A stretch of DNA of 64,000 nt. Origin: a bacterium (GTDB lineage Bacteria > Electryoneota > RPQS01). Shown in pieces: positions 20,115-63,212 of this stretch. Position 1 is the first letter of the stretch. Every line of letters starts with the position of its first letter. The notes beneath the pieces were generated by a model. It searched no databases and had not been told where the DNA came from. It saw nothing but the letters and a program-made list of their open reading frames with translations. A program made the translations under genes and the position numbers. The stretch is taken from contig JAPKYT010000117.1 in the NCBI GenBank assembly GCA_026394155.1, positions 1,993 to 65,992 on the forward strand, written 5' to 3'.

Positions 20115-20157
20115 GAGACCGACTCGGAAGCACAGGAGTCGGCCTCTTGTCTTTGTC
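20115..20157 (+). terminator. Rho-independent terminator after the 18020..20044 gene.
   Basis: Stem CCGACTC/GAGTCGG with a 10-nt loop, followed by tcttgtctttgtc. Confidence 0.5.
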
Positions 20158-20193
20158 TAGTGCCGTTTCCATAAAGGTTGTCTCGTTCTGATA

Positions 20194-20250
20194 TAGGGCG
20201 GGGTCTGTGACCCGCTCTGGAAAGAGGTCGGTCGCAGACCCGACCCTACA
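20194..20250. repeat. REP/MITE-like double-hairpin palindromic element, copy A (reverse orientation relative to copies B and C).
   Basis: tagggCGGGGTCTGTGACCCGC tctggaaagag GTCGGTCGCAGACCCGAC cctaca. It is the reverse complement of the 39183..39239 copy and is related to the tandem pair at 54582..54698. Confidence 0.7.
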
Positions 20251-20266
20251 GGCATGGAAGCAGCAC

Positions 20267-20308
20267 TGGCAAACAAAAAGAGCCCGTGACCCCGGAGGTC
20301 ACAGGCTC
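20267..20308 (-). terminator. Rho-independent terminator on the minus strand.
   Basis: 12-bp stem (gagcccgtgacc / ggtcacaggctc, one mismatch) with loop ccgga, followed on the minus strand by CUUUUUGUUUGCC. Confidence 0.5.
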
Positions 20309-30514: not shown

Positions 30515-33500
30515 TTATTTCATCAACAGAATCTTGCGCAACAGAGTGCGGTCACCGGCTTGGAGCCGGACAAGGTACATGCCGGTCGGGCAAGCGGAGC
30601 AATCCCAAACCACGGTGTGCACGCCGGGCCGGTAGAACCCGCGGATGACGCTGCCTGCCCGGCGGCCCAGGACATCGAACACCTCGATGGTTACGTTGGC
30701 CTCGCGCGGCAGGCCGAACCGCAACGTCGTTAACGGATTGAAGGGATTGGGGAAGTTCTGATCGAGGAAGAAATCGCCGGGAATTGCGCCGGCAACTTCA
30801 TCTGCGGACAGAGCACAGGAATCCACCGTGAACGGATCACTGACAACCGTGTCGCTGCGCGTGTCGCGCCAGATGACAATCATCAGCCGTGAGTCGGGCT
30901 GTCGAGGTCCGGAGTTGCGGATAGGTACGGTCTCTTGCGATACGGGAGGAGTATGTCCGCCGACGGGAAGGTACGCGCCGCCGTCGAGCTGCAGGTAGAT
31001 CGAATCCCCCTCGACACCGCTGCAAAGATCGAGCTGCAAGACGACGTCCGTGGAGCAGGGCAGGATCTCGGGCAGAACCGTCACCAGCGCGACCAGTTTG
31101 CGCAGGTGGCCCGAAACCGGCGACGTGAACGCGCTGGTATCGCAGAACGGATTGTAAGCGGCCACGGTATATCCGTGGTTCAGCGTATCGTCCACGCCGT
31201 GATCGGTAAAGGATGTTGACGTGACCGTGTCAATCGGAGCGCCATCGCGGCGAACCACATAGCCCGAAACCTCGCCGCCGCCGTCGGTCCACGTCATTCG
31301 GATCGAGTCGCAGACCGCGGGCGAAACGAAGGTCAGGCCGGTGGGCGTGTTTGCGCCTGCATGACCGGTTCCGGTAGCCGGTGTGCTCACCGGGCTGTTC
31401 CCGCACTCGCTGCTGTGCGCGCGCAGCGTGTACGAATGGGTGCCAGAGACGGTGTCCGTGAAAGCAAGCGTGCTCGCATTAACGCTGGCGATCTGTGCGA
31501 GATCACGGAAGACTCTGAATGAGTCTATGTCACCGCCCGCCGAAGTCCACCCTACTGCAATTTCCCCGCACAGGTTACTCGAAGCCGTCACGTTGGTCGG
31601 CGTTCCCGGCACGGCCAGACGGGTTCCGGAGGCCGGGGCGGAGACCGCGCCTGAGCCGCACCAGTTCTCCGCGCGTACTGTGTAGCTGAAGGTGCCGGCT
31701 GCGGGGACATCCGCGAATCGGGTCACATCGGCCGCCGTTGTGCCGGCCTCGGTTCCGTTGCGGAAGATGCGGTACAGTGTTTCGTTGGCCACGTCCTGCC
31801 AGGTGATGATGACGCTGTCGCAGCGACTTGATGTGGCGTTGACTCCCGTAACCTGAGCGGGAACGTGCCAACTTGCGCCGTTGTCGGGAGCGCTGCGCGG
31901 TCCGGTGCCGCACACATTGTGACCATACACCGCGTAGCTGTAGACCGTGTAAGGAACGGCGGTGAGATCCGCAAATGCCGGAAGCGTGCTTCCGCCGATC
32001 AGCGTATCGTTGCGATACACATGGAAGCTGTCAACGCGAAGCGTATAGCTCCACGTCAGTGAGACTTGATCGCACAACGTATCGGAAGCGGCGAGATTGC
32101 TGACGGTCGGCAGCACCGAGAAGCCCACCGTGATGGGCGGCGACTGCGGGCCTTCGCCGCACGCGTTGAAAGCCGCCACGGTCAGCTGATGTTGTTGCGG
32201 TGCGGCCAAGTCGCTGTAGCACAGAGTTCCCGCGGAAACAGAGTCAATGACACTCCCGCTTCGCCGGATGGTGTAACCATCGGCATCCGGCACACTCGCC
32301 CAGCAGATGTTGAACGAAGCGCAGGAGTCGGGGACAATGGGATTGGGAGCCTGTTGCGGCGCAGTCAGGCACATGCCCAAATCGCATCCGCTCGTGTCGC
32401 CGGCGCCGCACTCGTTGTAAGCCACCACGCAGTAAAGACGGCTGACACCGGGCACACACGTTGTGTCCGTGTAGGCGTGAGTACTCGATCCCACCTGACC
32501 GATGGACTGGCCGGCGCGGCGGATCAGGAATGTGTACGGGCCGGCCGGATACGACCACGTGATGAGCACGGAGTCGCAGCGGTTGTCGGTGGCGGAGACA
32601 GACGTGACAGCCGATGGAACAGCCAGCCTCGTGCCTTGATCCGAACCGGTGGTGTCGCCGGCGCCGCAGGCGTTGTAACCAACCACGCGGTAGGTGTAGG
32701 TGACGCCGGGAACGGCCGTTTCATCGAAGAAGAAGCTCGTGATTGCAGGAGTGCTCCCGAGGCGCACTCCGTTGCGCCGAACCTGGAAGCTGTCCGGAAA
32801 AAGAGAGTTCGACCATATCACCAGCACCCGCGTGCAACTCGTGTCGCTGGCGGCCACGCCAGTCACCGCACCCAGCGGAACCACGCGCGTTCCCGAGTCG
32901 GGAGCCGACAGCGTTTCGCAGCCGGGATTGAAGGCGGCAACCGCGTAGCTGTAAGCCGTGCCGGACAAGGCGGTCACGTCATGGTAACTCGTCGTGTTCG
33001 CAGCCAGATCGGTGCCGACCTGAACACTGTTCCTCAGAACACGGTAGCCCGTCTCATCGGCCACGTCAAACCACGTAATCAGGACGTCGTTGCAGCGATT
33101 CTCGCTCGCGGCCACGCCGGTCACCTGCGACGGCGGTGACAGTAGATTCCCCTGAGCGGTAAGGGAAACCGAACTCCATCCGCATCCGTTGACCGCGAAG
33201 AGGTAATAGCCGTGCTGTCCGGCGGCAGGCACATCCGCGAAGCGAATCGTGTTTGCCGTCAGTATCCAGCCCTCTGTGTTGTCTCTGACGAGTTCGTAAA
33301 TCTGCTCGTCGGCCTGATCGTTCCATGTGACAATGATGCTGTCGCAGCGGTCGCTTGTGGCACTCACCCCTGTGACTTGAACGGGCAGCGGCCCGGCGGG
33401 CTGCACATTCAGAACGAAGGGCCCTGACAAAGAGGGTGAGAACCCCTCGATCAGCGCGTAGTAGGCGCCGGCTACGGGAAGATTCACGCACAGTGACGAT

Positions 33501-36500
33501 TGCCCGGACCACATGTTGTTGCAGGGAAGGTCGTCGTTCCAAGCAACGGAGTCTCCGCAACAGTCCAGAGTGAGGTACAAGTAGGTGTCGTAGCTCGAGC
33601 CGCACAGGGAGAAGCTCCAATCCCCCGCCGAGGGAATCAGGACCTTGACCACCACGTCCTCGGATGACCGAGCCGCGCAATCATTGCCGGCTCCCAGAGT
33701 ATTTCCGCTGATCTGGCCCGGCGCCGTGAGTGTCGTATCCCAGCACGGGCAGCGGGCGGGATTCGTGCAGGCTGCGCCGTCGTCGGAAACATCCAGCCGG
33801 AAATCGCCCATCGAGTTGAATTCCGGGTACACGAGCAGCCAATAGACCTCTCCCGCGCGCGAGCACCAACTGAGCTGAGCGTGGGCAGCCGCACCGCAGT
33901 AGTCACCGTCGCTCGCTTCGCAATGGAGGCTCGTGCATCCGCAAGTGAACAGCGAGAGCCTGCTGTCCCAGGCGGTGGCGGTGCTGCAAAGGCTGGCGGT
34001 AATCGTATTCCCCGTGCCGACGATCTGATACCACACACCGAGGGCTTCGGTGGTGCCCGGACAATCGGGAATCGTGTCCAGCGTGGCGCACTTGGTGGTG
34101 CCGTAGGTCGTGGAGGGAACCATGACCACCGCGGCATTCGCGCAATGGTCGTTCACCGGCACTGTCGCAGCCGTTATGGAAAGATCAAACTCGGGAATGC
34201 AATCCGGGTCCGGCCACGTGTCTATCATAATGTAGTACGTGCCCGGCGTCAGGTGCTGGCAGGCGATGCCGTGCGAGAAATCGTCGCCGCTGATGTGCCA
34301 GGCGATGCAATCGGTTGTGTCGGGCGGGCAGTGGTCATCGAGCAGGATTCCGCTCCAGCCCGAATCGTGCGGATTCAGCCAAAGGGTGTAATCCGCCTCC
34401 TGGGTGACCGTCCAGCGGTAGATAATGTCTTCGCCCAAGCTGAAGGAGCCTAAGCAGCTATTCTCGTAGTCATGCCCGAGGCCGCAGGTCGTCTGATTGA
34501 GAAGGGTCGTGTCATCGCTGATCGAGATGGCATTGGCGCAATCCTCTCCGGGGGTGCCGCACGGCAGGCAGGTCATGGTCATGCGGTAATCCGCCGGATC
34601 AGGAATGCCTCCGAAAACAGACGGACCGGCCCACAGCACGTAGGCTCCGGTGTCGAGACAGGCGGTCGTCAACTCGAGCGTGCTGCATGCCTGGGCGAAG
34701 CCGCTGTACAGAATCGTGAGAGTGCAACTGTCGTTCAGCAGCCGAACGATGAGAACCTGAAGCGGGAACTCCGCCGAAGCGCTGACGTGCACGCTCTCGG
34801 GCGCGGTCACGTCGAAGCGGAACCAGTCCGTGTCGCGAAACTGTGATCCTTGTACCACGTAGGTGAAGCAGCGTCCGGCGATGGTTTGCCCGCAGGCGAT
34901 GCTATCGAACGTTCTGTCCGGCACATTGCAACCCCCGTCGCAATCCAGACGCGCATGGGAAGTATCCACAATCTCGGCGCATTCCACCACATCTCCCTGC
35001 TGCGGAATCACGCAGGTATAGCACGGCGCGGTGATGAGGTCGAAGTTCGGAATGAAGTTGGGCGAAGGATAGGTGTCCACCATGATGTAGTATTCGCCCG
35101 CCGTAAGATGGCGGCAAGCTATCCCATGCGGGGCGGCCGCCGAGCTGGTGTGGGTGGCAATGCATCCCGTAACGTCCGGCGGGCAGTTGTCGTCGAGGAG
35201 AATTCCTGTCCATGTTGTGGAGTAAGGATTGAGCTTAACCTTGTAATCGCCCTCCTCCGTGACCGTCCACTTGTAGATAATGTCCTCGCCGCCGTCATAG
35301 TTGATGAGACAGGTGTTGCTGTAGTCGTTCACCTTTCCCAGCGTCGTCTGGGCCGGAACGGTTGCAGCATCCGTGATGTCAATGGGCGAGTTGCAGTCCT
35401 GACCGGGCGGGCAGGGTCCGCAATGCAGCCACACGCGATAGTCCAGAGGATAAGGAATGCCTACAAAGACGGAAGGGGCAACAAAGATGGCATAAGTGCC
35501 GGGTTCGAGACATGTGTCGGCAACGCTGGCCGTATCACAGGCGGCGACAAGCTCATAAGCCAGTGACGTCACAGAACAACCGGTGTCAATCCGAAGCAAA
35601 CTCAACTGCAGCGGGAATTCACCCACGGCGTGCACTCGCACCGTGTCATATTCCCACAAGGTGAATTCATACCAATCCGTGTCGCGGTAAGTCGAGCCTC
35701 GGCGTACGTAAGTGAACGCCTTGCCACAGACCGTGTCGCCGCAGACGATTGCCCCGAAGGTGTTTTCCGCGTTGTTGCAACCGCCGTCACAGTCGAGCAA
35801 GGCATTGGTGCTGTCCACCGTTTCCTCGCACTCGATGCGGTCCAACGGCTGACAGGTCACGCAGGAATAGACTCGTCCTAAAGCAAAATCAAACTCCGGA
35901 ATACAGATTGGTTCAGCCCACGTATCCATCATCAGGTAGTATGTTCCGGCAGTGAGGTGTTGTGAGAGCACGCCATATGGTAAAGAGCCGATGTTTGTGT
36001 AGGTGGCAATGCACGCGCCGGGTCCATCCGGCGGGCAGTGGTCATCCAATAGAAATCCTGTCCAGCTTGTGCCGCGGGGATCCATCCAGAAGGCGTAATC
36101 ACCTGTTTGACTCAATGTCAGGCTATAGACAATATCCTCACCGTTATCATAGTTTCCCAGACAGGTGGTGTTGTAGTCAGCGCCGTACCAGCAGGTGGTC
36201 TGCGATGCCATTGTGACATATTGAGAGCTTAACACCACCGGATCGCTGCAATCCACACCGTCGGGACACGGTTCGCAGTCCAGTACCACCCGGTAGGTCA
36301 GCGGCACAGGAATGCCGTTGAAATCCGATGGTGCGACCCAAAGCGTGTAAGTTCCGGCGTCAATACAGACAACGCTGAGTTCGGTCGTATCGCAGGCGAA
36401 ACCGGATGTCGAATACAGAACCGATGCCGGACAGACGGCGTTCAGAATATAGACGGAAACGTTGAACTCGGCATACACCGTTGCTTTTATCCGCGAGCGT

Positions 36501-38569
36501 TCGCTGAGCGTGAAACGGTACCAGTCCGTGTCGCGGTAAGTCGAGCCTTGGCGCACGTACGTGAATCCCAAGCCGCACACGGTATCGCCACATTGAATAG
36601 TGTCGTAGGACGCGACTCCTCCCGGTCCGACGTTGTTGCACCCGCCGTCGCAGTCGAGGCGGCTGTGTGATGTATCCGGGTTTTCTGTGCATTCGATGGT
36701 GTCCGTCCCCAAGCAAGTCAGCGTGCACGGCGGGCAGATTCCCGCTTCCAGCACGTAATCGCCGCAGGCGCCGCCATATCCGTCCACGACAATGTAGTAC
36801 GTGTGACCGGCCTGAAGAGATACGCAGCGAAGAAGTGATCGAAGAGAACTATTGGCTCCCGGGCAGGTAGCCGTAGGCACATCGTCGTTGCAGACCATCG
36901 GCGTGCCCCCGCACGAATCATCATAGACATAGATTTTGGTGTCAAAGCTCGAACGGCACAAGCTGAATGTCACCTGTTGCGCCACCGGGGGGGTGTACCG
37001 GTAGGCGATGTCACGGCCGCCCTGTCCGCCTGTGTAGGGTGGACAGGCATAGAAATAGTCGTCCAGCGCGTAACACGTGTTGCCCGTGTACGTGCCCGGA
37101 ACACTCATGGTGATGGCATTTCCGCAAGAGTCACCCACGAGCGGCGCGCGGATCTGCAAGCGCCAGCGGCGCAGATAGCCGTCACCGTTGTCCTCGTCGC
37201 TGCACACGCGCAGCCGCCAGACGCCGTTCGGATTCTCACCGTCAAAGGTGGACAGAGCTTCCTCGGGGTGGAAGCTGCCGGTGAATGGCGCTGTGTTGCA
37301 CCCGGCACTGCCGATGATGCATGCCGCATCATCATCGAACCGAGTGTTGTAGTAGTTGTCGCCTGTTCCGCCGTTATCGGTGCTGAGCGTGCACGTGTCG
37401 CCCGCCGGACTGATAAGGTAGATGTCCAGATCGGTGTCATAAGAGAACGTCAGTGTATCAATCTGCACTTCCACGTCCGTAATCTGTGGCCCAAGATTGC
37501 TAACCGTAATCGAGTCCGCAACGCACGAGTAGTGCCAGATGTATCGCGGTGCATGGGACGAGTAGAACGTCACTCCTCCGTTATCGTCGAGAGTCTCGCG
37601 GCCGCGGTGAGTCAGCTCGCCCAGGCGGGTGTCAATATCCGAAAAGTCGCGTCCGGCAATCTCCAGTTCCTTGCGCTGCTCAAGAAGTGAGTTGATTTCG
37701 TCGCGATCAGGGTCGTAGGGCGCAACGACTTCCGACTCGACGACTTCACCGCTGAAGGCTTCGGTGGTCATTGCCTCTGCTGCAACTCCGGCGCCGGACT
37801 GTGCCTTTGATGCCGTACTTTTGCCCTGAGAAAGGAGTTCGATGATGCGGTTCTTGATCGGAGTGACGTCGCCTCCGGAGGCGTGAACCTCGTCCGCTTG
37901 CCTCTGGAGGGACTGTATCTCCGCCCAAGTGGACTCGTCCAACTTGGGCTGCGGCGGCTCCGAGAGGCGTCGCGAAGCCGTCCTGTCGCCTTGCAGCGTA
38001 CCGGCAGATGCAGACAGGGAGACTCCCGGCGGCAGCGCGACCGAAGAGGACTTCGCGGATGGGCCGGATGCGTTTCGACCCGCCGCCGTGCGGCGATCCG
38101 GCTGGACGGGCGCCTGCGCGCCGGTACCGCCCAACTCCCGGAGCGCTGAGCTGTCGGCAAGCGGCGCCCGGCTCTTGCGGGCGGAAACCGCAGCGACTTT
38201 GCGTTGCGGCGCGCTCCGTCCCAAAAGCTCATCTATCCGCATCTTGATCTGGCTGGCATCCAGCCCGCGTCTGACTCGCACAGCAAGCTCATCCATGAGC
38301 GCCCTGACTTGCGCCTTGAGCGCGTCGAACGGCTCGACCTGCTTCGCCGCGTGCCCGGCAGGGAGTGGCTCGACTCGCGCGGGGTCAATTGGCCCGGCGA
38401 GACCAACCGTGTCCGGTTCCATCTTCGCCCCTGTCTTGACCGCGTCGCCGGAGGCGGAACGGAACGGGCTTGGCTTTCCGGTCTGAATCCTGTCTACGGA
38501 CCAGGCGGCGGCCAGACCCAAAAAACAAAGCGCGGCGCACGCGCAGACAACAAGTAAAGTCCTTTTCAC
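30515..38569 (-). CDS. Giant (2684 aa) T9SS-sorted surface protein. It has an N-terminal low-complexity/coiled region, a proprotein-convertase P-domain, arrays of PPC-type domains, about 9 FN3-like domains and a T9SS CTD.
   Basis: GTG start with signal MKRTLLVVCACAALCFLGLAAAWS. P-domain-like segment (DLDIYLISPAGDTCTL...NPNGVWRLRVCSDEDNGDGYLRRWRLQI). Repeated cysteine-rich modules with RDTDWY[RE]F (PPC hallmark) alternating with modules containing GEDI[IV]Y.W.T...GDY. Nine VTGV[SA]A[ST]...C...[IL]TW FN3-like units. CTD FFLDQNFPNPFNPLTTLRFGLP...GMYLVRLQ...KILLMK. Confidence 0.85.
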   Translation of the reverse strand: MKRTLLVVCACAALCFLGLAAAWSVDRIQTGKPSPFRSASGDAVKTGAKMEPDTVGLAGPIDPARVEPLPAGHAAKQVEPFDALKAQVRALMDELAVRVRRGLDASQIKMRIDELLGRSAPQRKVAAVSARKSRAPLADSSALRELGGTGAQAPVQPDRRTAAGRNASGPSAKSSSVALPPGVSLSASAGTLQGDRTASRRLSEPPQPKLDESTWAEIQSLQRQADEVHASGGDVTPIKNRIIELLSQGKSTASKAQSGAGVAAEAMTTEAFSGEVVESEVVAPYDPDRDEINSLLEQRKELEIAGRDFSDIDTRLGELTHRGRETLDDNGGVTFYSSHAPRYIWHYSCVADSITVSNLGPQITDVEVQIDTLTFSYDTDLDIYLISPAGDTCTLSTDNGGTGDNYYNTRFDDDAACIIGSAGCNTAPFTGSFHPEEALSTFDGENPNGVWRLRVCSDEDNGDGYLRRWRLQIRAPLVGDSCGNAITMSVPGTYTGNTCYALDDYFYACPPYTGGQGGRDIAYRYTPPVAQQVTFSLCRSSFDTKIYVYDDSCGGTPMVCNDDVPTATCPGANSSLRSLLRCVSLQAGHTYYIVVDGYGGACGDYVLEAGICPPCTLTCLGTDTIECTENPDTSHSRLDCDGGCNNVGPGGVASYDTIQCGDTVCGLGFTYVRQGSTYRDTDWYRFTLSERSRIKATVYAEFNVSVYILNAVCPASVLYSTSGFACDTTELSVVCIDAGTYTLWVAPSDFNGIPVPLTYRVVLDCEPCPDGVDCSDPVVLSSQYVTMASQTTCWYGADYNTTCLGNYDNGEDIVYSLTLSQTGDYAFWMDPRGTSWTGFLLDDHCPPDGPGACIATYTNIGSLPYGVLSQHLTAGTYYLMMDTWAEPICIPEFDFALGRVYSCVTCQPLDRIECEETVDSTNALLDCDGGCNNAENTFGAIVCGDTVCGKAFTYVRRGSTYRDTDWYEFTLWEYDTVRVHAVGEFPLQLSLLRIDTGCSVTSLAYELVAACDTASVADTCLEPGTYAIFVAPSVFVGIPYPLDYRVWLHCGPCPPGQDCNSPIDITDAATVPAQTTLGKVNDYSNTCLINYDGGEDIIYKWTVTEEGDYKVKLNPYSTTWTGILLDDNCPPDVTGCIATHTSSAAAPHGIACRHLTAGEYYIMVDTYPSPNFIPNFDLITAPCYTCVIPQQGDVVECAEIVDTSHARLDCDGGCNVPDRTFDSIACGQTIAGRCFTYVVQGSQFRDTDWFRFDVTAPESVHVSASAEFPLQVLIVRLLNDSCTLTILYSGFAQACSTLELTTACLDTGAYVLWAGPSVFGGIPDPADYRMTMTCLPCGTPGEDCANAISISDDTTLLNQTTCGLGHDYENSCLGSFSLGEDIIYRWTVTQEADYTLWLNPHDSGWSGILLDDHCPPDTTDCIAWHISGDDFSHGIACQHLTPGTYYIMIDTWPDPDCIPEFDLSITAATVPVNDHCANAAVVMVPSTTYGTTKCATLDTIPDCPGTTEALGVWYQIVGTGNTITASLCSTATAWDSRLSLFTCGCTSLHCEASDGDYCGAAAHAQLSWCSRAGEVYWLLVYPEFNSMGDFRLDVSDDGAACTNPARCPCWDTTLTAPGQISGNTLGAGNDCAARSSEDVVVKVLIPSAGDWSFSLCGSSYDTYLYLTLDCCGDSVAWNDDLPCNNMWSGQSSLCVNLPVAGAYYALIEGFSPSLSGPFVLNVQPAGPLPVQVTGVSATSDRCDSIIVTWNDQADEQIYELVRDNTEGWILTANTIRFADVPAAGQHGYYLFAVNGCGWSSVSLTAQGNLLSPPSQVTGVAASENRCNDVLITWFDVADETGYRVLRNSVQVGTDLAANTTSYHDVTALSGTAYSYAVAAFNPGCETLSAPDSGTRVVPLGAVTGVAASDTSCTRVLVIWSNSLFPDSFQVRRNGVRLGSTPAITSFFFDETAVPGVTYTYRVVGYNACGAGDTTGSDQGTRLAVPSAVTSVSATDNRCDSVLITWSYPAGPYTFLIRRAGQSIGQVGSSTHAYTDTTCVPGVSRLYCVVAYNECGAGDTSGCDLGMCLTAPQQAPNPIVPDSCASFNICWASVPDADGYTIRRSGSVIDSVSAGTLCYSDLAAPQQHQLTVAAFNACGEGPQSPPITVGFSVLPTVSNLAASDTLCDQVSLTWSYTLRVDSFHVYRNDTLIGGSTLPAFADLTAVPYTVYSYAVYGHNVCGTGPRSAPDNGASWHVPAQVTGVNATSSRCDSVIITWQDVANETLYRIFRNGTEAGTTAADVTRFADVPAAGTFSYTVRAENWCGSGAVSAPASGTRLAVPGTPTNVTASSNLCGEIAVGWTSAGGDIDSFRVFRDLAQIASVNASTLAFTDTVSGTHSYTLRAHSSECGNSPVSTPATGTGHAGANTPTGLTFVSPAVCDSIRMTWTDGGGEVSGYVVRRDGAPIDTVTSTSFTDHGVDDTLNHGYTVAAYNPFCDTSAFTSPVSGHLRKLVALVTVLPEILPCSTDVVLQLDLCSGVEGDSIYLQLDGGAYLPVGGHTPPVSQETVPIRNSGPRQPDSRLMIVIWRDTRSDTVVSDPFTVDSCALSADEVAGAIPGDFFLDQNFPNPFNPLTTLRFGLPREANVTIEVFDVLGRRAGSVIRGFYRPGVHTVVWDCSACPTGMYLVRLQAGDRTLLRKILLMK

Positions 38570-39182
38570 GGTGAGCCTTTCTGCTTAGTCGTGGAAGCGT
38601 GCTGGTGTGAAGTCACGTTCGGGATCATTTTTTTAATGTGCCTATTCTCTTGCATAAAGTCAAGGCCGTTCAGGTTTCACCATCTTTCTCGCCCCTTGCG
38701 CTGCATAGAGTAATGTGTTTTTGGAACATGCGCCGAATCGCATCAGGCCGACGTGTCTGTCAGCATGGTCACTGTCTCGATTGAGGTCACGGTGCGTCGT
38801 CTGAATAAGCAATCCTGCTTGCATGCCGACAATGGCGATGGAGTTGGCGGCGCCAGACAACTCACGACGGCGCTTCGCGCTCGCAGGAACTCGCCTTCTT
38901 GAACTCCATAGAGCTGTGGTCAACCTGCCGGACTGTACGTCATCAGAACAAACGGCATACCTTGCGCTACGGTATTGGGGTGTAGTTTGGGTTCGTAAGT
39001 TGCGGATTTTCCGTAGTTTTTGATGGTTTTCAGATTGGCCCGTTTGCGGGCCTTTTTTGCTTGGGTTTGCAGCCGTTTTGCTGCTGCAGGATCGAGCCAA
39101 GTATCATCCCTGCTGTGATAGTGATGAAAGCGGCGGCAGGCGATTCTCGGGCTCGTGCCGTTTCCATTAAGGTCTGCGCGCT

Positions 39183-39239
39183 TGTAGGGTCGGTCTGCGA
39201 CCGACTCTTTCCAGAGCGGGTCACAGACCCCGCCCTACA
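39183..39239. repeat. REP/MITE-like double-hairpin palindromic element, copy B.
   Basis: gtagggTCGGTCTGCGACCGA ctctttccaga GCGGGTCACAGACCCCGC cctaca. It sits in the divergent intergenic region between the giant T9SS gene and the GT2 gene. Confidence 0.7.
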
Positions 39240-39608
39240 CGGAACGGGAGGACATTTTTACGAAACGGCACTAGAGTTGAAGAGTCACAAGGCCGCGTCG
39301 CGGCGGCGGGACGCGACTGACCAGAGCAGCAGCGTCAGAATCGTAAAGTAGATGGTGTCCAACACGTGCTCGAAATAGTGGGATGTCAACAGATAGAGCA
39401 CACTGAGAGTGGCGAATGGGGTCCCGCCGAGCCGGGTTAAGTCGTCGCAACCCGGCCGGAATTCCTGCTCCTTGTGTCATCCTGAAGGTCGCTCTTCCTG
39501 GCTTGCGGCCTGAAGGATCACCAAGAGTTTCCGAATTCGACTTTCTGTGATCCTTCACCCCCGTCGAAGACTTCGGGGGTTCAGGATGACGTGACCGCCG
39601 AGTAAACT

Positions 39609-40568
39609 ATGCCTGAATACTGTTACCCCTTCAGCCTTTCCATCGTGATTCCCGTTTACAACGATGAGGAAGTCTTGCCGGAGCTTCACCGACGGCTGGT
39701 GCCCGTGCTCAGCGAACTTGCGGCCGACTGGGAGATCGTCTTCGTGGACGACGGCAGCCGCGACGGCTCACTGCGCGTGCTGCGCGATGCGCAAAACACT
39801 GATCCGCACGTTCGCATTGTGCGGCTGGCGCGCAACTTCGGGCAGGCCAACGCCGTCACTGCCGGACTCGATCATGCGCGCAACGAGGTGGTGGTGATCA
39901 TGGATTCCGATTTGCAGGACCGGCCCGAGGACATTCACCGGCTGGTGGACGCGATGGTGGAGAAGGACGTCCCCGTAGCCATCGCCCGCTGGATTTCACG
40001 TCAGGACAGCGCGTTCAAGCTGGCCGTGTCACGCCTTTTCTACGTCGTCACCGATCGCATCACCAGTCTCAAGCGCGAGCCTCGGCTCGGCGTGTTTCGC
40101 GCCATGAAGCGCGTGGTGGTGGATGAGCTCAAGGCCATTCCCGAGAAAACGGCTGACACCATCAGCCTGATGTTGTGGCTCGGCTTCGAATATGTCCCGG
40201 TGGATCTGCATCGCGATCCGCGCTACGCCGGCACCAGCGGCTACACGCTGACCAAGATGCTGAAACTGTCGTTCGATCTGATCTTCTCCTTCTCGCTCTT
40301 TCCCATCCGTGTGGCGAGTGTCTTGGGCGTGATTCTGAGCATCGCCGGCGTGCTGCTCGCCGCCTATTTTGTGATTCAGAAGCTCTTCTTGCGCAACGTG
40401 GTTCCCGGCTGGACATCACTGGTCGTCATCGTCCTCTTTCTTTTTGGAGTGACGTTCTCGTTCTTGGGCATAATCGGCGAGTATATGGGTCGCATCTTCA
40501 TGGAGACGAAAAGGCGGCCCAAGTACGTGGTGGGGAAGGTGTATGAACCAACCAAGGAAAAACCGTGA
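39609..40568 (+). CDS. Family 2 glycosyltransferase, polyprenyl-phosphate sugar transferase type (ArnC/DPM1-like) with two C-terminal TM helices.
   Basis: GT2 motifs: SIVIPVYNDEE, VFVDDGSRDGS, DSDLQD (DxD). C-terminal TM helices characteristic of ArnC/GtrB-like enzymes. Confidence 0.85.
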   Translation: MPEYCYPFSLSIVIPVYNDEEVLPELHRRLVPVLSELAADWEIVFVDDGSRDGSLRVLRDAQNTDPHVRIVRLARNFGQANAVTAGLDHARNEVVVIMDSDLQDRPEDIHRLVDAMVEKDVPVAIARWISRQDSAFKLAVSRLFYVVTDRITSLKREPRLGVFRAMKRVVVDELKAIPEKTADTISLMLWLGFEYVPVDLHRDPRYAGTSGYTLTKMLKLSFDLIFSFSLFPIRVASVLGVILSIAGVLLAAYFVIQKLFLRNVVPGWTSLVVIVLFLFGVTFSFLGIIGEYMGRIFMETKRRPKYVVGKVYEPTKEKP

Positions 40569-51677: not shown

Positions 51678-51819
51678 GCCCTCGGTATCCAGAACTAACT
51701 AACCAATGTACAACAACGATTTATCAAGGTCAACGACCGGCAACCCCTTGCCAATCCGCGAATCTTTCCACATATTGACGTGACCGAAAGCCCCGCACTG
51801 CACCGATCACAGCCCGTCC

Positions 51820-54023: not shown

Positions 54024-54563
54024 ATGGCGCGCTTCGCCATGGTCATTGACACCCGCCAATGCGTCGGCTGCATGGACTGTGTGGTCGCCTGCAAGACCGA
54101 AAACGGCGTGCCCGAGGGCTTCAATCGCGACTGGATTGTGCAGGATGTGAACGGCATTTATCCCACGCTGCACATGGAAATTCGCAGCGAGCGCTGTAAT
54201 CACTGCGACAATCCTCCCTGCGTCTACTGCTGTCCGACGGGAGCCAGCCACGTGCACGATCTGGGCGGCGTGGTGCTGGTGCATCACGAAAAGTGCATCG
54301 GCTGCAAGGCCTGCCTCGCCGCTTGTCCCTATGATGCGCGCTTTGTCCATCCCGAAGGTTACGCCGACAAATGCACTTTCTGCATTCATCGCGTGGAGAA
54401 GGGACTTCAGCCGTCGTGCGTGGCCGTGTGCCCCACCTACTGCATGTATTTCGGCGATCTCGATGATCCCTTGAGCGAAGTCAGTCTGCTTCTAACCTCG
54501 CGGAAATATCACCTGCTGCTTCCCGAAACCGGAACCCAGCCGCACATCTACTATCTCACCTAA
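54024..54563 (+). CDS. psrB: 4Fe-4S ferredoxin-type electron-transfer subunit (PsrB/DmsB-like).
   Basis: Four Cys clusters: CVGCMDCVVAC, CNHCDNPPCVYCCP, CIGCKACLAACP, CTFC...C. Confidence 0.88.
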   Translation: MARFAMVIDTRQCVGCMDCVVACKTENGVPEGFNRDWIVQDVNGIYPTLHMEIRSERCNHCDNPPCVYCCPTGASHVHDLGGVVLVHHEKCIGCKACLAACPYDARFVHPEGYADKCTFCIHRVEKGLQPSCVAVCPTYCMYFGDLDDPLSEVSLLLTSRKYHLLLPETGTQPHIYYLT

Positions 54564-54581
54564 GCCGTTATTGCCGAGGTC

Positions 54582-54698
54582 GTAGGGTCGGTCTGTGACC
54601 GATGCCTCAAGACGCGGGTCGCAGACGGCGCGATTGCCGGGGTGGTAGGGTCGGTCTGCGACCGACGCCTCGAGACGCGGGTCGCAGACCCGCCCTAC
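54582..54698. repeat. Tandem pair of REP/MITE-like double-hairpin elements, copy C.
   Basis: Two units of gtagggTCGGTCTG[T/C]GACCGA-spacer-GCGGGTCGCAGAC(CCGC)cctac. Each arm is a perfect hairpin (TCGGTC-TGC-GACCGA; GCGGGTC-GCA-GACCCGC). They lie between psrB and the BNR T9SS gene. Confidence 0.75.
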
Positions 54699-54723
54699 TC
54701 AACCCCAAAGAAAAGGGGCATGT

Positions 54724-56862
54724 ATGAAACCGTCTGTGCTCTCTTGGAGTCTGTCGGCTCTGCTCGCACTTTCGCTGCACGCAGGGGCGGAAGTCTGGGA
54801 ATGGCAAAACCCTCTGCCGGCAGGAAACAATCTGGAAGGCGTGGCCTTCACGGATTCGCTGACAGGGTGGATGGTCGGGGGATACGGCACCGTGTTCCAC
54901 ACGACCGACGGCGGTGTCACGTGGAACACGTGGAGTGTGCCCACGCTGGCGCATCTTCAAGCCGTCTCCTTTGCCGACGCTCGCAACGGCTGGATTGCCG
55001 GCTGGGACTGGGCCACGCAGCGCGGGATTATCCTTCACACCACCAACGGCGGCGCTTCGTGGACAACGCGCTCCTCGCAGTGGGATCCGTGGTGGGAAAA
55101 AGTCGTCTGCGTGGACAGTCTCTCGGCGTGGGCCTGCGGATGGGGAACCATTCTGCAAACCACCAACGGCGGAGCCACGTGGCTGACACGTTTCGATGAT
55201 CTCTACTTGTCTTTCTATGGGATGACGGTGGTTGACGACTCCAACGTATGGGTCGCCGGCTACGATGCGCTCTCTTCCGAAGGCTGCGTGCTGCGCACGA
55301 CCGACGGCGGAGTGAATTGGGATGTGCTCTGGCCGTCCGGCGCCACGTATCTTTGGGATGCCGCCTTTGTGAGTGCCGACACGGGCTTTGTCGTCAGCTT
55401 CTATGGACAACTTTTTCGAACCGGCGATGCTGGTCAAACATGGTCTGCCAGCGTGCCCGGATCGGGCGGCACTCTGGTCAGTGTGTGCTTTGCCGATTCC
55501 CGCAACGGTTGGCTCACTGGCACCAATGGCCGCGTGCTGCACACCACGGATGGGGGCGAGAGCTGGGCACAAACTTCCGTCGGCACGCATTGCTTCCTCA
55601 CCGATATCTGTTTCACCGATTCCACGCGCGGCTGGGCCTGCGGCGAGGGAAGCGGCCGCTTCCGTTCCACCGACGGTGGCCAAACGTGGTCTCGCTTCGG
55701 CAGCGGAGTTGACGCCACGCTCACGGGCGTTTCCTTTGCGGATGCATTCAACGGCTGGGCCGTCGGAGGCTACGGCGTGATCCTCCACACCACCAACGGC
55801 GGCCAAGCTTGGCAGCAGCAGGTCAGCGGCCTTCAAACTTGGATTTCCGATGTCGCCTTCGTGAATACTCTGACCGGTTGGGCCGTGGCCTATGGAACCA
55901 TCATTCACACCTCCGATGGGGGCGGTTCGTGGCAGGCTCAAATCAGCGGATTGAACGCCTCATTCAGCACTGTGGACTTCGCCGACACTCTTTCCGGATG
56001 GGCTGTCACCTACGACGCGACCATCTTCCACACGAGCGATGGCGGCGCGGTCTGGACTCCGCAAGCGAGCGGCGTCACGACGGAACTCTGGAACGTGGAT
56101 GCCGTGGACTCGCTGAATGCGTGGGCCGTTGGTTACGGTGGCACTTGGCCGTACACGGGATACCTGCTGCGAACCACCAACGGCGGCCAGGACTGGTCGG
56201 TTCAATCCACCCGCAACAACGTCTACTGGTTGGGTGTGAGTTTCGCCGAAAACGGCCACGGCTACATCGTCGGTGCCGACAATCAAAGAGGAAGTGGGGA
56301 GATCTGGCAAACTTACGACAACGGTCTGCATTGGTCCGCGATGCAATTGAACGCTCCCGGAACCGTCCTCTACAATGTGAAATGCCGCGGGGAAACCGCT
56401 GTGGTCGTCGGGCAATGGGGTTTCATTAAGCGAACGGCAGACGGCGGCGTGAACTGGTCGCGGGATACGAGCTACACGGACAACCTGCTGGAGGATGTGG
56501 CTCTCGCCGATGGCGGTCACGCCTGGGTCGTCGGCGAGGGAGGAACGATCCTGCACAGCCTTTCACCCAGCGCAGCGGAGTATCTCCCTCCCGCGGTGGC
56601 AAGCTCCTACGAACTGCGCGCCTTTCCCAATCCGTTCAACCCGCTGACCACCGTCACGGTGAGCCTGCCCGCTTCAGGCCGGGCCCGCGTGGATGTCTTC
56701 GACGTCACCGGCCGCCTGCGGCGAACACTGGTCAACACAGCGCTCTCCGGCGGCACGCACACCTTTGTCTTTGACGCGTCCGATTGGCCCAGCGGTGTTT
56801 ACTTCGCCCGTCTCACTGCCGGAGAGCGATCCCGCACGCTCAGGCTTCATCTCCTGAAGTAA
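54724..56862 (+). CDS. T9SS-sorted BNR/Ycf48-like beta-propeller repeat protein, inserted between psrB and psrC.
   Basis: Signal peptide. About 11 repeats of the [IVL][LF][HR]T[TS][DN]GGxxW[ST] type (BNR/Asp-box, Ycf48-like). CTD YELRAFPNPFNPLTTVTVSLP...SGVYFARLT...RLHLLK. Confidence 0.8.
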   Translation: MKPSVLSWSLSALLALSLHAGAEVWEWQNPLPAGNNLEGVAFTDSLTGWMVGGYGTVFHTTDGGVTWNTWSVPTLAHLQAVSFADARNGWIAGWDWATQRGIILHTTNGGASWTTRSSQWDPWWEKVVCVDSLSAWACGWGTILQTTNGGATWLTRFDDLYLSFYGMTVVDDSNVWVAGYDALSSEGCVLRTTDGGVNWDVLWPSGATYLWDAAFVSADTGFVVSFYGQLFRTGDAGQTWSASVPGSGGTLVSVCFADSRNGWLTGTNGRVLHTTDGGESWAQTSVGTHCFLTDICFTDSTRGWACGEGSGRFRSTDGGQTWSRFGSGVDATLTGVSFADAFNGWAVGGYGVILHTTNGGQAWQQQVSGLQTWISDVAFVNTLTGWAVAYGTIIHTSDGGGSWQAQISGLNASFSTVDFADTLSGWAVTYDATIFHTSDGGAVWTPQASGVTTELWNVDAVDSLNAWAVGYGGTWPYTGYLLRTTNGGQDWSVQSTRNNVYWLGVSFAENGHGYIVGADNQRGSGEIWQTYDNGLHWSAMQLNAPGTVLYNVKCRGETAVVVGQWGFIKRTADGGVNWSRDTSYTDNLLEDVALADGGHAWVVGEGGTILHSLSPSAAEYLPPAVASSYELRAFPNPFNPLTTVTVSLPASGRARVDVFDVTGRLRRTLVNTALSGGTHTFVFDASDWPSGVYFARLTAGERSRTLRLHLLK

Positions 56863-56879
56863 CGACACGCAAACCCGCC

Positions 56880-61820: not shown

Positions 61821-63212
61821 TCAACTTAGCGAAGTTGGAAATCTGTCAGGCTCTTTCACCACTTCTTGTCCTGTTTGCTGTGCCGCTTGCTTCGCCCGAG
61901 CTTCTCTAATGGACTGGGTGGTTCTGTATTCTCTGGCTTCGGGAATCTTCGACAATTGAGTGTTTGGGTTCAGCTCATTCACAATTGCTTCAATCTCATC
62001 GATAGAAACACCAAAGAACTCATCTCTTGGATTCACCAAGTTCATCCGGCAATGCTCGAGTCGCTTATGCAATGCACTTTCAAGTTCCGGGGCATTTTCA
62101 GAGTAGATCATGGCATGCACATCAAAGTCGAACGGCACCGAAGCATCGCCAAGTTCGTTGACTCTCTCAAGTGGCTCTAATCGTCTTGTCATGCCTATCT
62201 TGTAGACGTGGTCACCAAAAGAGCCGATATTGGAGATGATGTAAATGTGGCCTAACTTAGTCAGTTGTGCTTGGGAGATGGCTCTCTCTTTTCGCTCGCT
62301 CGCCTTTTGAAGACTCTCCTCAAGCGCCTTGATCTTTTCATTCAGCGCATCGAGTTCCTTCCCCGTTGTGTTAGCAACCTCTGCTTTCGCTCTCTCCAAC
62401 GCCTTGTCATATCTTTCTTCCTCGTCCTCTGCCTCCTTTCGCGCTTTTTCCATTTCACGCAGTGCTTTTTCCTCTTCGCGCATTTGCTCCCTGATTCTTC
62501 TCTGCTCTTCTTTCTCTTGGTGAAGTTTCTCCTCAAGCTCGAATTCAAGCCTCAGCTCTTCTACCTTGAGATTGTAGTATTCCTTAGTCAGCACTATTTG
62601 ATGCGTCGTCCCCAGCTTGTTGAAGGCATCATACGCTCTTTCGATTCTCGCTTCCATGTTACCGATATTGCTCCAACTTACTTTCGCAATTGCCGCATCA
62701 CATTCTCCGTTAAACGCACGAAGCATCAACTTCGAGTAGTGCTTCGTCATCTTTGTCCCTTCCCCCTTGCTGTCACTCACTGTCCATTTCACTGCGCAGT
62801 ACGTAGCCATGTCATTCTTGATGAGCTGCTTCTGGCGTTCCCTTATGGCTTCGATGTTCTTCTTGAACTCATCCGAAGTACCGAAGTCGTAGTGGGGTTT
62901 GTAGAGGCCATATGAAATGTTCTCCAAGTTCTCTTCGAGTACTGAAATCTCCGCGAGTAAGTTCTCATAGATAACTCGCTTGTTTGAGTAATCTTGATTT
63001 AGCTGCGCTTTCTGTGTCTCATGATCCGCCTTAAGCCGCTCTATGGTCTGGTTAGTGCTTGCGAGCTCATCATTTCGTCTTGCCAAGGCGGCGTCAATAT
63101 CAATGATATCTTTGTACTCGTCTTTGAGTTTCTTTGCTTGCAGAGTCTGCTTGATGGATAGGAATAGGAGCAAGCCGATCAGCGCTGCTGAGAAGACAAG
63201 AGCTATTGTCAT
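61821..63212 (-). CDS. DUF4041 + T5orf172 (GIY-YIG-like) domain protein with an N-terminal TM helix and a long coiled-coil.
   Basis: N-terminal TM (IALVFSAALIGLLLFLSI). DUF4041-like block (CAVKWTVSDSKGEGTKMTKHYSKLMLRAFNGECDAAIAKVSWSNIGNMEARIERAYDAFNKLG). Glu/Lys/Arg-rich coiled-coil. T5orf172-like block (GHIYIISNIGSFGDHVYKIGMTRRLEPLERVNELGDASVPFDFDVHAMIYSENAPELESALHKRL...FFGVSIDEI). GGAGG RBS 8 nt upstream. Confidence 0.8.
   Translation of the reverse strand: MTIALVFSAALIGLLLFLSIKQTLQAKKLKDEYKDIIDIDAALARRNDELASTNQTIERLKADHETQKAQLNQDYSNKRVIYENLLAEISVLEENLENISYGLYKPHYDFGTSDEFKKNIEAIRERQKQLIKNDMATYCAVKWTVSDSKGEGTKMTKHYSKLMLRAFNGECDAAIAKVSWSNIGNMEARIERAYDAFNKLGTTHQIVLTKEYYNLKVEELRLEFELEEKLHQEKEEQRRIREQMREEEKALREMEKARKEAEDEEERYDKALERAKAEVANTTGKELDALNEKIKALEESLQKASERKERAISQAQLTKLGHIYIISNIGSFGDHVYKIGMTRRLEPLERVNELGDASVPFDFDVHAMIYSENAPELESALHKRLEHCRMNLVNPRDEFFGVSIDEIEAIVNELNPNTQLSKIPEAREYRTTQSIREARAKQAAQQTGQEVVKEPDRFPTSLS

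What the first reader, a model, noticed from the sequence alone, without database searches (positions are those of the whole stretch)
54582..54698. Novel family of ~55-bp double-hairpin palindromic elements (REP/MITE-like) at three intergenic loci
The unit is GTAGGG-[TCGGTC TGC GACCGA]-spacer of ~10-[GCGGGTC GCA GACCCGC]-CCTAC. Each half is a perfect 6-7-bp hairpin, and the two halves are near inverted copies of one another. Copies occur at 20194-20250 (reverse orientation), 39183-39239 and as a tandem pair at 54582-54698. All are intergenic and lie next to large T9SS genes or at operon junctions. Such elements can act as transcription attenuators, mRNA stabilisers, recombination hot-spots or IS targets.
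Basis: seen in the sequence. Interest (0 to 1): 0.6.

Follow-up and report, generated by a model that had tools for sequence, protein, structure and literature searches.

The report
REP/REPIN-type palindromic repeats, not novel kind
The double hairpins are real and are inverted pairs of GTAG-tagged repetitive extragenic palindromes (REPIN-like miniature mobile DNA), a well-known kind of bacterial repeat, found here in an uncultured bacterium, where they mark hypervariable spots in the genome.

Summary
Copies lie at 20193-20249 (-), 39184-39238 (+), and as a 63-nt tandem at 54570-54698. None are expected by chance.

Each half is an unpaired 5' GTAG(GG) tag followed by a 6-7-bp stem and a 3-nt loop. 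The two halves face each other with the GTAG tags outside. That is the published definition of a head-to-head dimer of GTAG-tagged REPs, also called a REPIN.

The same REP superfamily is abundant in metagenomes, with more than 120 loci found. Its stems co-vary: 134 of 139 hits keep both variable pairs. In several loci these REPs directly flank REP-associated tyrosine transposase (RAYT) genes.

Related genomes at 85-93% nucleotide identity differ in presence or absence at orthologous sites:
- The window's tandem, together with a secreted-protein gene, is a 2.3-kb insert inside a psrABC-like operon.
- One relative has eight 48-nt REP units at that site.
- Another relative has an IS4-family element between two REP heads at that site.
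- Two others have nothing there.

- The repeated unit is longer, about 115-125 nt, with outer inverted flanks.
- The first tandem unit is truncated.
- The thermodynamically favoured fold is one long hairpin.

I could not test whether this genome carries its own RAYT, nor its genome-wide copy number. Verdict: a new member of a known kind, of modest interest.

The parts
39184..39238 (+). Copy B core, a complete REPIN-like head-to-head heterodimer. Left REP 39184-39205 (GTAGGG + TCGGTC TGC GACCGA + C), spacer 39206-39215, right REP 39216-39238 (reverse complement GTAGGGCGGGGTCTGTGACCCGC).
39151..39276 (+). Copy B extended unit. Outer inverted flanks (GCTCGTGCCGTTTCCAT ... TACGAAACGGCACTAGA) enclose the core and form an outer stem.
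   Evidence: 3 hits against 0.16 expected; blastn to L015, L120 and L127 over 96-122 nt.
20193..20249 (-). Copy A core, the same heterodimer in reverse orientation. The CG-arm tag has decayed to ATAG (20193-20196).
   Evidence: (33-nt perfect inverted match to copy B).
20156..20269 (-). Copy A extended unit (TCTAGTGCCGTTTCCAT ... ATGGAAGCAGCACTGG). It lies between two convergent terminator-like hairpins, the + strand one at 20132-20150 and the - strand one at 20308-20280.
   Evidence: 88.6% identity to L127 13383-13493.
54570..54632 (+). Tandem unit 1: 12-nt flank ATTGCCGAGGTC, complete TC-arm REP (54582-54603), spacer, and a CG-arm truncated after GCAGAC (54614-54626).
   Evidence: (family D5).
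54633..54698 (+). Tandem unit 2: flank ATTGCCGGGGTG plus a complete heterodimer at 54645-54698.
   Evidence: (I18).
54567..56878 (+). 2.3-kb segment: the REP tandem plus the BNR/YCF48-like Por_Secre_tail gene (54724-56862). It is inserted between the psrB-like gene (54024-54563) and the NrfD/psrC-like gene (start 56879). It is absent from relatives L125/L127 and L126 and from an Ignavibacteriales outgroup.
56867..56878 (+). Possible REP remnant at the right junction of the insert. CGCAAACCCGCC matches the REP arm CGCAGACCCGCC at 11 of 12 positions. This is weak evidence.
   Evidence: by inspection only.

Best explanation
These are GTAG-tagged repetitive extragenic palindromes (REPs) arranged as head-to-head heterodimers, which are REPIN-type non-autonomous mobile elements.

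Shown:
- Each arm is an unpaired 5' GTAG(GG) tag followed by a 6-7-bp stem and a 3-nt loop.
- The two arms (stem types TCGGTC/GACCGA and CGGGTC/GACCCG) are inverted with the tags outside. They are separated by 10-11 nt and carry conserved outer flanks.
- The elements are dispersed, and they differ in presence and copy number between closely related genomes.
- REPs of the same superfamily flank RAYT genes in other organisms. One of these is 21/22 identical to the window's CG-arm.

Inferred: a single-copy REP-associated tyrosine (HUH/Y1) transposase encoded elsewhere in this genome recognises the REP hairpins in single-stranded DNA. It cuts at or near the GTAG tag and copies or moves the dimers in trans.

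Once in place the elements have side effects:
- They expand and contract as tandem arrays (2 x 63 nt here, 8 x 48 nt in a relative).
- They receive IS insertions.
- They sit at rearrangement and gene-insertion junctions.
- When transcribed they would form a very stable 3' hairpin, which could shield the upstream psrAB-like message or attenuate read-through into the inserted gene. This last effect is not tested.
For: Anatomy:
- The GTAG tag plus stem-loop is visible in the sequence.
- As single-stranded DNA a single arm folds with GTAGG unpaired, a 7-bp stem and a 3-nt loop.
- The whole dimer folds as a long hairpin with z -4.5 to -7.5.

Non-randomness.

Superfamily:
- 134 of 139 hits keep both variable stem pairs Watson-Crick across four stem types, where the pattern allowed 16 combinations and only 4 are complementary.
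- 88 of 130 hits have an inverted partner within 170 nt.
- The TC/GA + CG/CG heterodimer of 53-55 nt is a recurrent subfamily, 14 of 45 strict dimers.
- Within heterodimers each arm stays self-complementary while the arms mismatch each other. This points to selection on the individual REP hairpins.

Transposase link:
- RAYT genes directly abut these REPs in L067 (NCBIfam NF047646, 204 bits against a cutoff of 80, with a REPIN on both sides) and L118 (85.7 bits, a REPIN on both sides).
- L115 scores 78.6 bits and L082 is a partial gene. L009 (61.7 bits) also carries a Y1 transposase gene, but its only REP hit lies about 2.2 kb away.
- L067's REP GTAGGGCGGGTCTGTGACCCGC differs from the window's arm at 54698(-) by one loop base.

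Mobility and dynamics:
- L127 (about 89% nt identity) carries a full extended element after its rhodanese gene. The window and L128 have an empty site there.
- The psrB/psrC junction is empty in L125/L127, L126 and the outgroup L131. It holds 2 units in the window, 8 units in L128, and an IS4 element between REP heads in L030.
- L030 has an extra solitary REP in a 615-bp insert.
- Short-read contigs break inside the repeat.

Literature: every one of these features is described for GTAG REPs and REPINs (PMC3733652; abstracts).
Against: - No RAYT or Y1 transposase gene lies in the 64-kb window or in the closest relatives' contigs. The RAYT-flanked REPINs found are homodimers from other organisms, not this heterodimer subfamily.
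- Only three loci are seen.
- Filled-versus-empty comparison did not give clean element boundaries, so excision, insertion and ordinary deletion cannot be told apart.
- Locus B lies in a region between divergently oriented genes, which is less typical for REPs.
Confidence: 0.82

Rival explanations
1. The elements are MITEs derived from a DDE insertion sequence. The arms would be the terminal inverted repeats of the IS4-family element seen in L030, and the 55-bp units would be internally deleted copies mobilised by that transposase.
For: In L030 a 1.28-kb IS4-family element (NF033592, 223 bits; DDE_Tnp_1) is bounded on both sides by inverted GTAGGGTCGGTCTGYGACC heads, with no direct target duplication. 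A short derivative of that IS also exists in L030.
Against: The IS's own ends (AGTAGTGTCTMACTGT) are absent from the window, even at 3 mismatches, and from the dimers. The IS-derived MITE in L030 has its own ends, has an 11-bp direct duplication (CCCGTGAAYGG), and is not bounded by REP heads. The window's arms are complete hairpins with two different stem types, whereas L030's flanks stop mid-hairpin. The same REPs flank Y1/RAYT genes, not DDE genes, in at least four other loci. The L030 structure is better explained by IS insertion into REP hairpins followed by IS-mediated rearrangement, since synteny ends there.
Confidence: 0.05
2. They are host cis-regulatory hairpins (terminators, attenuators or mRNA 3' stabilisers) kept by selection for that role. 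On this view they are not mobile, and their similarity reflects convergence or local duplication.
For: The hairpins are very stable. Locus C starts 19 nt after a stop codon in a co-directional gene pair, and in L128 the tag even supplies the stop codon. GTAG REPs are reported to lie mostly downstream of coding regions (PMC3733652 abstract).
Against: No T-run follows any copy, and the terminator scan calls none of them. Copy A lies between, and outside, two convergent terminator-like hairpins, so it is probably poorly transcribed. Near-identical 115-nt units sit at non-orthologous sites, and presence or absence differs among genomes 85-93% identical. The association with RAYT genes also argues against this view. 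A regulatory side effect is still compatible with the main explanation.
Confidence: 0.08
3. The tandem at 54570-54698, and the 8-unit array in L128, is a degenerate CRISPR-like array or a plain minisatellite unrelated to the dispersed copies.
For: The repeats are short, palindromic and regularly spaced, with periods of 63 and 48 nt.
Against: The 'spacers' are the same sequence in every unit (98% matches in L128). The repeat is the same REP as at the dispersed loci. Tandem reiteration of REPs together with flanking DNA is a described REP cluster type (PMC3733652).
Confidence: 0.01

Closest known systems
GTAG-tagged REP families, head-to-head (HH) heterodimers (Di Nocera, De Gregorio and Rocco 2013, BMC Genomics 14:522; PMC3733652)
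   Same: - An unpaired terminal GTAG tag.
- A 6-7-bp stem and 3-nt loop, within the published ranges of 6-13 bp and 2-3 nt.
- Dimers with the tags outside.
- Partners with different stems, as in P. aeruginosa GTAG-24.
- A conserved spacer.
- Dimers reiterated in tandem together with flanking DNA.
- Dimers nested in longer palindromes, as in A. variabilis GTAG-15.
- Location mostly downstream of genes.
   Different: The stem and loop sequence (GGG + YSGGTC TGY GACCSR) was not found in that paper's text or supplements, so it is not assignable to one of its 24 families from what I could read. The host is an unclassified MAG with T9SS-type genes rather than a proteobacterium. The spacer is very short at 10-11 nt.
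REPIN-RAYT systems (Bertels and Rainey 2011, PLoS Genet 7:e1002132; RAREFAN preprint 10.1101/2022.05.22.493013)
   Same: Two inverted REPs with a short spacer form one long hairpin. Copies are dispersed and extragenic. Presence and absence vary between relatives. RAYT genes are flanked by the same kind of REPs in related metagenomic loci.
   Different: The cognate RAYT and a genome-wide population of copies, which are part of the REPIN concept, could not be examined for this genome. Here the two arms are systematically different (a heterodimer), so the long hairpin carries four mismatched positions.
E. coli REP/BIME clusters and the RAYT TnpA-REP (Ton-Hoang 2012 and Messing 2012, PMC3479197, as summarised in PMC3733652)
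   Same: GTAG-tagged hairpins occur in clusters of alternating or tandem units. The proposed cleavage is of single-stranded REP DNA at the tag.
   Different: There is no sequence similarity. Binding by IHF, gyrase or Pol I, which defines BIME subclasses, is not testable here.
REP-targeting insertion sequences (for example ISPpu9 in Pseudomonas putida KT2440, PMC8450116 abstract)
   Same: An IS sits inside REP sequence at the orthologous site in relative L030.
   Different: The L030 element is an IS4-family DDE transposon (NF033592). It is bounded by inverted REP heads without a direct duplication, which suggests a secondary rearrangement. Target specificity rests on a single case.

Membership tests
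GTAG-tagged REP (REP superfamily) | An unpaired GTAG-type tetranucleotide at one end of a short palindrome (stem 6-13 bp, short loop). | tested here: met
   Sequence. The single-stranded DNA fold leaves GTAGG unpaired, with a 7-bp stem and a 3-nt loop. One arm of copy A has ATAG.
GTAG-tagged REP (REP superfamily) | Repeated and extragenic in the genome. | tested here: inconclusive
   There are 7 REP arms at 3 intergenic loci in 64 kb, against 0 expected by chance. More copies occur at other sites in relatives. The genome-wide count is not obtainable.
GTAG-tagged REP (REP superfamily) | The stem is maintained by complementary changes among subfamilies. | tested here: met
   134 of 139 pattern hits keep both variable pairs Watson-Crick across four stem types, against 25% if the positions were unconstrained.
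REPIN | Two REPs in inverted orientation separated by a short spacer, able to form one long hairpin. | tested here: met
   (I18).
REPIN | A cognate RAYT (Y1/HUH transposase) in the same genome, itself flanked by the REPs. | not testable with these tools
Indirect support: RAYT genes flanked by REPINs of the same superfamily in L067 and L118.
REPIN | Evidence of movement or turnover: insertion polymorphism between related genomes. | tested here: met
   The site after the rhodanese gene is filled in L127 and empty in the window and L128. The psrB/psrC junction is empty, holds 2 units, holds 8 units or is IS-interrupted in different relatives.
MITE of a DDE transposon | Terminal inverted repeats matching an autonomous IS, and flanking target-site duplications. 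| tested here: not met
   The ends of the IS4-family element are absent from the window. No direct duplication is seen around any copy.
Intrinsic (Rho-independent) terminator | A GC-rich hairpin immediately followed by a T/U run. | tested here: not met
   The scans call other hairpins nearby but none of the elements.
CRISPR array | Direct repeats separated by unique spacers, usually with cas genes nearby. | tested here: not met
   The inter-repeat sequences are identical between units. No cas-like Pfam hit was found among the flanking genes scanned.
Any Rfam RNA family | A covariance-model match at the gathering score. | tested here: not met
   The whole window gives 0 matches at gathering. 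At E<=1 the only hit is a chance mir-642 match of 22 bits against a gathering score of 90.

The most novel reading that the evidence does not exclude
The REP array at the psrB/psrC junction may be more than a passenger. It could act as a recombination or integration landing pad through which a complete T9SS-cargo gene (the BNR/YCF48-like gene at 54724-56862) was captured into a conserved polysulfide-reductase-like operon. The same pad later received an IS4 element in a sister lineage. If so, REP/REPIN clusters in this uncultured lineage would behave as hotspots that shuttle accessory secreted-protein genes. A possible REP remnant at the right junction (11/12 match) hints at a REP-bounded cassette.
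Probability: 0.12. Interest if true: 0.5.

Novelty: new member of a known kind. Interest (0 to 1): 0.27.

Why it matters
REP/REPIN-RAYT systems have been studied mainly in Proteobacteria. This finding adds a well-defined heterodimeric REPIN subfamily in an unclassified, T9SS-bearing MAG. It also shows that its REP superfamily (GTAGGG-NNGGTC-TGY-GACCNN) is very common in sediment, soil and peat metagenomes, with RAYT genes attached.

Practical consequences:
- These repeats break short-read assemblies at predictable points.
- They mark hypervariable junctions: variable tandem arrays, IS insertion, and gene insertion into an operon.
- They could serve as strain markers.

The finding does not change what is known about how such elements work.

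Tried and rejected
- Species-representative genomes. The exact 21-mer gave only 3 hits: a Calditrichaeota MAG with a REPIN-like pair, plus two single hairpins. The source genome is not in that set, so genome-wide counting was impossible.
- Rfam. Gathering on the whole window and E<=1 on two loci gave nothing real.
- Plasmid database and viral contigs: no match.
- Literature. A full-text search for the 12-mers returned only unrelated primer coincidences. The supplements of Di Nocera 2013 do not hold these sequences.
- RAYT search. I ran tblastn with a RAYT-like probe written from memory, used only as bait, and then with the four RAYTs it recovered. There was no hit in the window, L030, L127, L128 or the other close loci.
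- Reaching the NCBI contig (72,761 bp; proteins MCX6601513, MCX6601533 and MCX6601534). Exact-protein look-ups failed or returned only short Logan contigs.
- Defining exact element ends from filled versus empty sites. The alignment is ambiguous because the empty site already contains a GAAACGG-like stretch. I therefore make no claim about a target sequence.
- Taxonomy. The PsrB-like protein is about 80% identical across several phyla, and the Calditrichaeota contig is only about 60% identical at protein level. The phylum is left open.
- Special association with T9SS genes. I considered and rejected this: it holds for the three loci, but the window holds at least five such genes.

Full report

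Yes. The sequence at the three loci shows the following.
- Copy B, 39184-39238: GTAGGG-TCGGTC-TGC-GACCGA-C / TCTTTCCAGA / GCGGGTC-ACA-GACCCCGC-CCTAC.
- Copy A, 20193-20249: the same element on the other strand. A 33-nt stretch is a perfect inverted match to copy B (I1). One tag has decayed to ATAG.
- Locus C, 54570-54698: a 63-nt direct duplication (D5; TRF 1.9 copies, 91% identity).

The 21-mer of the TC-arm gives 3 hits at up to 3 mismatches, against 0.00 expected. The CG-arm is likewise non-random. A structural scan for GTAG followed by a perfect hairpin finds no other member of this family in the 64 kb.

- The duplication at locus C includes 12 nt of flank, and its first unit has a truncated right arm (54614-54626).
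- The right arm of copies A and B has a one-base bulge.
- The repeated unit is longer than 55 bp.

An extension of about 40 nt (…GAACGrGACAAC…ATGGAAACGGCACTAG) follows the CG-arm in copies A and B and in metagenomic relatives. An inverted, diverged copy precedes the TC-arm. The full units are therefore nested palindromes at 39151-39276 and 20156-20269. The outer motif gives 3 hits against 0.16 expected, and one search shows the outer stem.

**2. Structure**

As single strands, the dimers fold best as one long hairpin. The RNA energies are -33 to -38 kcal/mol (z -5.2 to -7.3). The DNA energies are -16 to -20 kcal/mol (z about -4.7).

A single arm as DNA folds with GTAGG unpaired, a 7-bp stem and a 3-nt loop. 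This is exactly a 'tagged' REP.

The two arms differ systematically. One has stem TCGGTC/GACCGA and the other CGGGTC/GACCCG. Each arm is self-complementary, but the long hairpin has four mismatched positions.

**3. Relatives elsewhere**

The exact 21-mer occurs only 3 times in one genome per species. One hit is a REPIN-like pair in a Calditrichaeota MAG.

- 134 of 139 hits keep both variable stem pairs Watson-Crick, using four different stem types (CC/GG 73, CG/CG 39, TC/GA 17, TG/CA 5). The pattern allowed 16 combinations, of which 4 are complementary.
- 88 of 130 hits have an inverted partner within 170 nt.
- Among strictly defined dimers, the TC/GA + CG/CG heterodimer of 53-55 nt recurs 14 times out of 45. 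It appears in the window and in L127, L040, L049, L080 and L107.

The hairpin of each REP is therefore under selection, and the window's element belongs to a defined subfamily of a very widespread superfamily.

**4. Link to a transposase**

I used a RAYT-like probe written from memory, only as bait. It recovered Y1-transposase genes in five of the 123 loci, and curated models confirmed them:
- L067: NF047646 'REP-associated tyrosine transposase', 204 bits against a cutoff of 80.
- L118: 85.7 bits.
- L115: 78.6 bits.
- L009: 61.7 bits, with Pfam Y1_Tnp at 46 bits.
- L082: a partial gene.

In L067 and L118 the gene is bracketed by a REPIN on each side. In L115 and L082 a REP abuts the stop codon. 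In L009 the only REP hit lies about 2.2 kb from the gene.

L067's REP (GTAGGGCGGGTCTGTGACCCGC) differs from the window's CG-arm at 54698(-) by one loop base.

No such gene lies in the window or in the closest relatives' contigs. The RAYT link is therefore shown for the superfamily and inferred for this genome.

**5. Comparative genomics of locus C (the finding's own coordinates)**

The gene upstream is a PsrB-like 4Fe-4S subunit, preceded by a molybdopterin oxidoreductase. Its 90% cluster led to contigs of related genomes. The state of the psrB/psrC junction in each is as follows.

| Contig | Nucleotide identity to window | State of the psrB/psrC junction |
|---|---|---|
| L125/L127 and L126 | about 89-91% | psrB TAA-GCCCTC-ATG nrfD/psrC, only 6 nt apart |
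| L131 (Ignavibacteriales outgroup) | about 80% PsrB protein identity | operon uninterrupted (psrA-psrB-nrfD-Sulf_transp x2-rhodanese) |
| Window | - | 54567-56878 inserted: the REP tandem plus the 712-aa BNR/YCF48-like Por_Secre_tail gene |
| L128 | 91% | same insert with an identical right junction, but eight direct REP heads with a 48-nt period (98% matches) |
| L129 and the Logan contig of the window's own strain | - | assembly breaks inside the repeat |
| L030 | 85-88% | same left junction, then GTAGGGTCGGTCTGTGACC \| 1.28-kb IS4-family element \| GGTCGCAGACCGACCCTAC, after which synteny ends |

Supporting calls are 56, 57, 59 and 63 for L125/L127 and L126, and for L131. Searches cover L128, the broken contigs, and searches cover L030.

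The window's insert is therefore derived. In L128 the TAG of the first tag serves as the psrB stop codon. The L030 element scores 223 bits to NF033592.

The IS ends are flanked by inverted REP heads rather than a direct duplication. This fits insertion into REP hairpins followed by IS-mediated rearrangement, but it rests on one case.

Two further polymorphisms were seen:
- L127 has a complete extended element (88.6% identical to copy A) between the rhodanese stop codon and its terminator. The window and L128 have an empty site there, and L127's synteny with the window ends at that element.
- L030 has a 615-bp insert with a solitary REP and an IS-derived MITE bounded by an 11-bp duplication.

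**6. Local context of the other loci**

Copy A lies downstream of a Por_Secre_tail gene, between two convergent terminator-like hairpins. It is probably outside the main transcripts, which favours a DNA-level element over a selected RNA.

Copy B lies in a region of about 1 kb between a giant minus-strand gene and a plus-strand family-2 glycosyltransferase. That region also holds two other small structured repeats.

None of the copies is followed by a T-run.

**7. Mechanism**

Most likely (0.82): these are GTAG-REP head-to-head heterodimers, meaning REPIN-type non-autonomous elements.

Their spread is inferred to depend on a RAYT acting on single-stranded REP hairpins and cutting at the tag. 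This follows the E. coli enzyme as summarised in PMC3733652.

The observed consequences are variable tandem arrays, an IS insertion and breakpoint association. Effects on the psrAB message are plausible but untested.

The rivals fail specific tests:
- DDE-type MITE: no matching IS ends and no target duplication.
- Dedicated terminator or regulatory hairpin: no T-run, and the presence/absence polymorphism argues against it.
- CRISPR-like array: the 'spacers' are identical in every unit.

**8. Comparison with the known, and novelty**

Every anatomical feature is in Di Nocera et al. 2013:
- the GTAG tag;
- stem and loop sizes;
- HH dimers;
- heterodimers with different stems;
- conserved spacers in HH dimers;
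- tandem reiteration with flanking DNA;
- dimers nested in longer palindromes;
- RAYT genes flanked by REPs.

The REPIN concept is from Bertels and Rainey. IS insertion into REPs is also known, for example ISPpu9.

What is new is only this particular sequence family and its host, an unclassified MAG labelled '[bacterium]' with 60% G+C and many T9SS-type genes. The locus history described above is a neat illustration. I therefore call it a new member of a known kind and score its interest at 0.27.

The most novel reading not excluded is that the REP array served as a landing pad for capture of the T9SS-cargo gene (probability about 0.12).

Noticed in passing
window 54567-56878 (compare L127 10541-10546, L128 10541-13219): A complete BNR/YCF48-like gene with a T9SS sorting domain, preceded by the REP array, is inserted between the psrB-like and nrfD/psrC-like genes of an otherwise conserved operon. 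The operon is uninterrupted in two close relatives and in an Ignavibacteriales outgroup.
   Followed up: yes
L030 9745-11060: A 1.28-kb IS4-family insertion sequence (383-aa DDE transposase with a DUF4372 N-terminus) lies between two inverted REP heads at the site orthologous to window 54582. It has no direct target duplication, and synteny with the window ends there.
   Followed up: partly
L030 6293-6919: A 615-bp insert is absent from the window (51735-51743) and from L127. It holds a solitary REP and a roughly 190-bp MITE-like derivative of the IS4-family element, bounded by an 11-bp direct repeat CCCGTGAAYGG.
   Followed up: partly
L128 10536-10915: At the same junction a relative has eight direct (head-to-tail) REP units with a 48-nt period and identical inter-repeat sequence. 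The TAG inside the first GTAG tag is used as the stop codon of the psrB-like gene.
   Followed up: yes
window 39431-39462: A second small palindromic repeat family (GCCGGGTT..GTC.TCG.AACCCGGCCGGAAT). It is 92% identical to sequences next to REPIN arrays in L040 and L107, and a similar copy lies in L128. It is unrelated to the GTAG REP.
   Followed up: partly
window 39476-39590: A roughly 115-nt element closed by GTCATCCTGAA…TTCAGGATGAC, with three internal hairpins (RNA -60.6 kcal/mol, z -5.4). It ends just upstream of the glycosyltransferase start at 39609 and has no Rfam match. GTCATCCTGA…GAAGGATC-like motifs also appear in L003 and L096.
   Followed up: partly
L127 about 13540-13575; L128 about 10960-10995 and 16260-16300: A third repeat, CCCCCCACTTCGTGGGGGGACAAAAGGGGGG, recurs in the relatives' intergenic regions but is absent from the window at up to 3 mismatches.
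   Followed up: partly
L040 478-768; L080 2994-3327; L107 740-831: Other metagenome contigs carry three heterodimers of the same subfamily in tandem, with periods of 119-140 nt. Conserved inter-dimer sequence separates them, giving BIME-like clusters.
   Followed up: no
L085 and L088 (around 780-1100); L017; L083: In another lineage a CC/GG homodimer REPIN is nested inside a longer element with terminal inverted repeats GGGTGTGAGACAAATTTC…GAAATTTGTCTCACACCC. This is another case of REP dimers embedded in larger palindromes.
   Followed up: no
window 61821-63212 (-) and neighbours, via L130: The 463-aa protein carries SNIPE, T5orf172 and MUG113 nuclease-type domains. In the matching Logan contig a neighbouring gene has a weak ThsB_TIR hit. 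This may be a small defence-gene cluster at the end of the window.
   Followed up: no
window 8974-14754 and 30515-38569: Two giant genes (1926 and 2684 aa) contain long internal direct repeats, with periods of about 1670 nt and about 850 nt respectively.
   Followed up: no
L124 (SRR20698646) and L129 (SRR35360741): Short-read Logan contigs of the same or closely related strains end inside the REP array. These repeats therefore fragment assemblies at this locus.
   Followed up: yes
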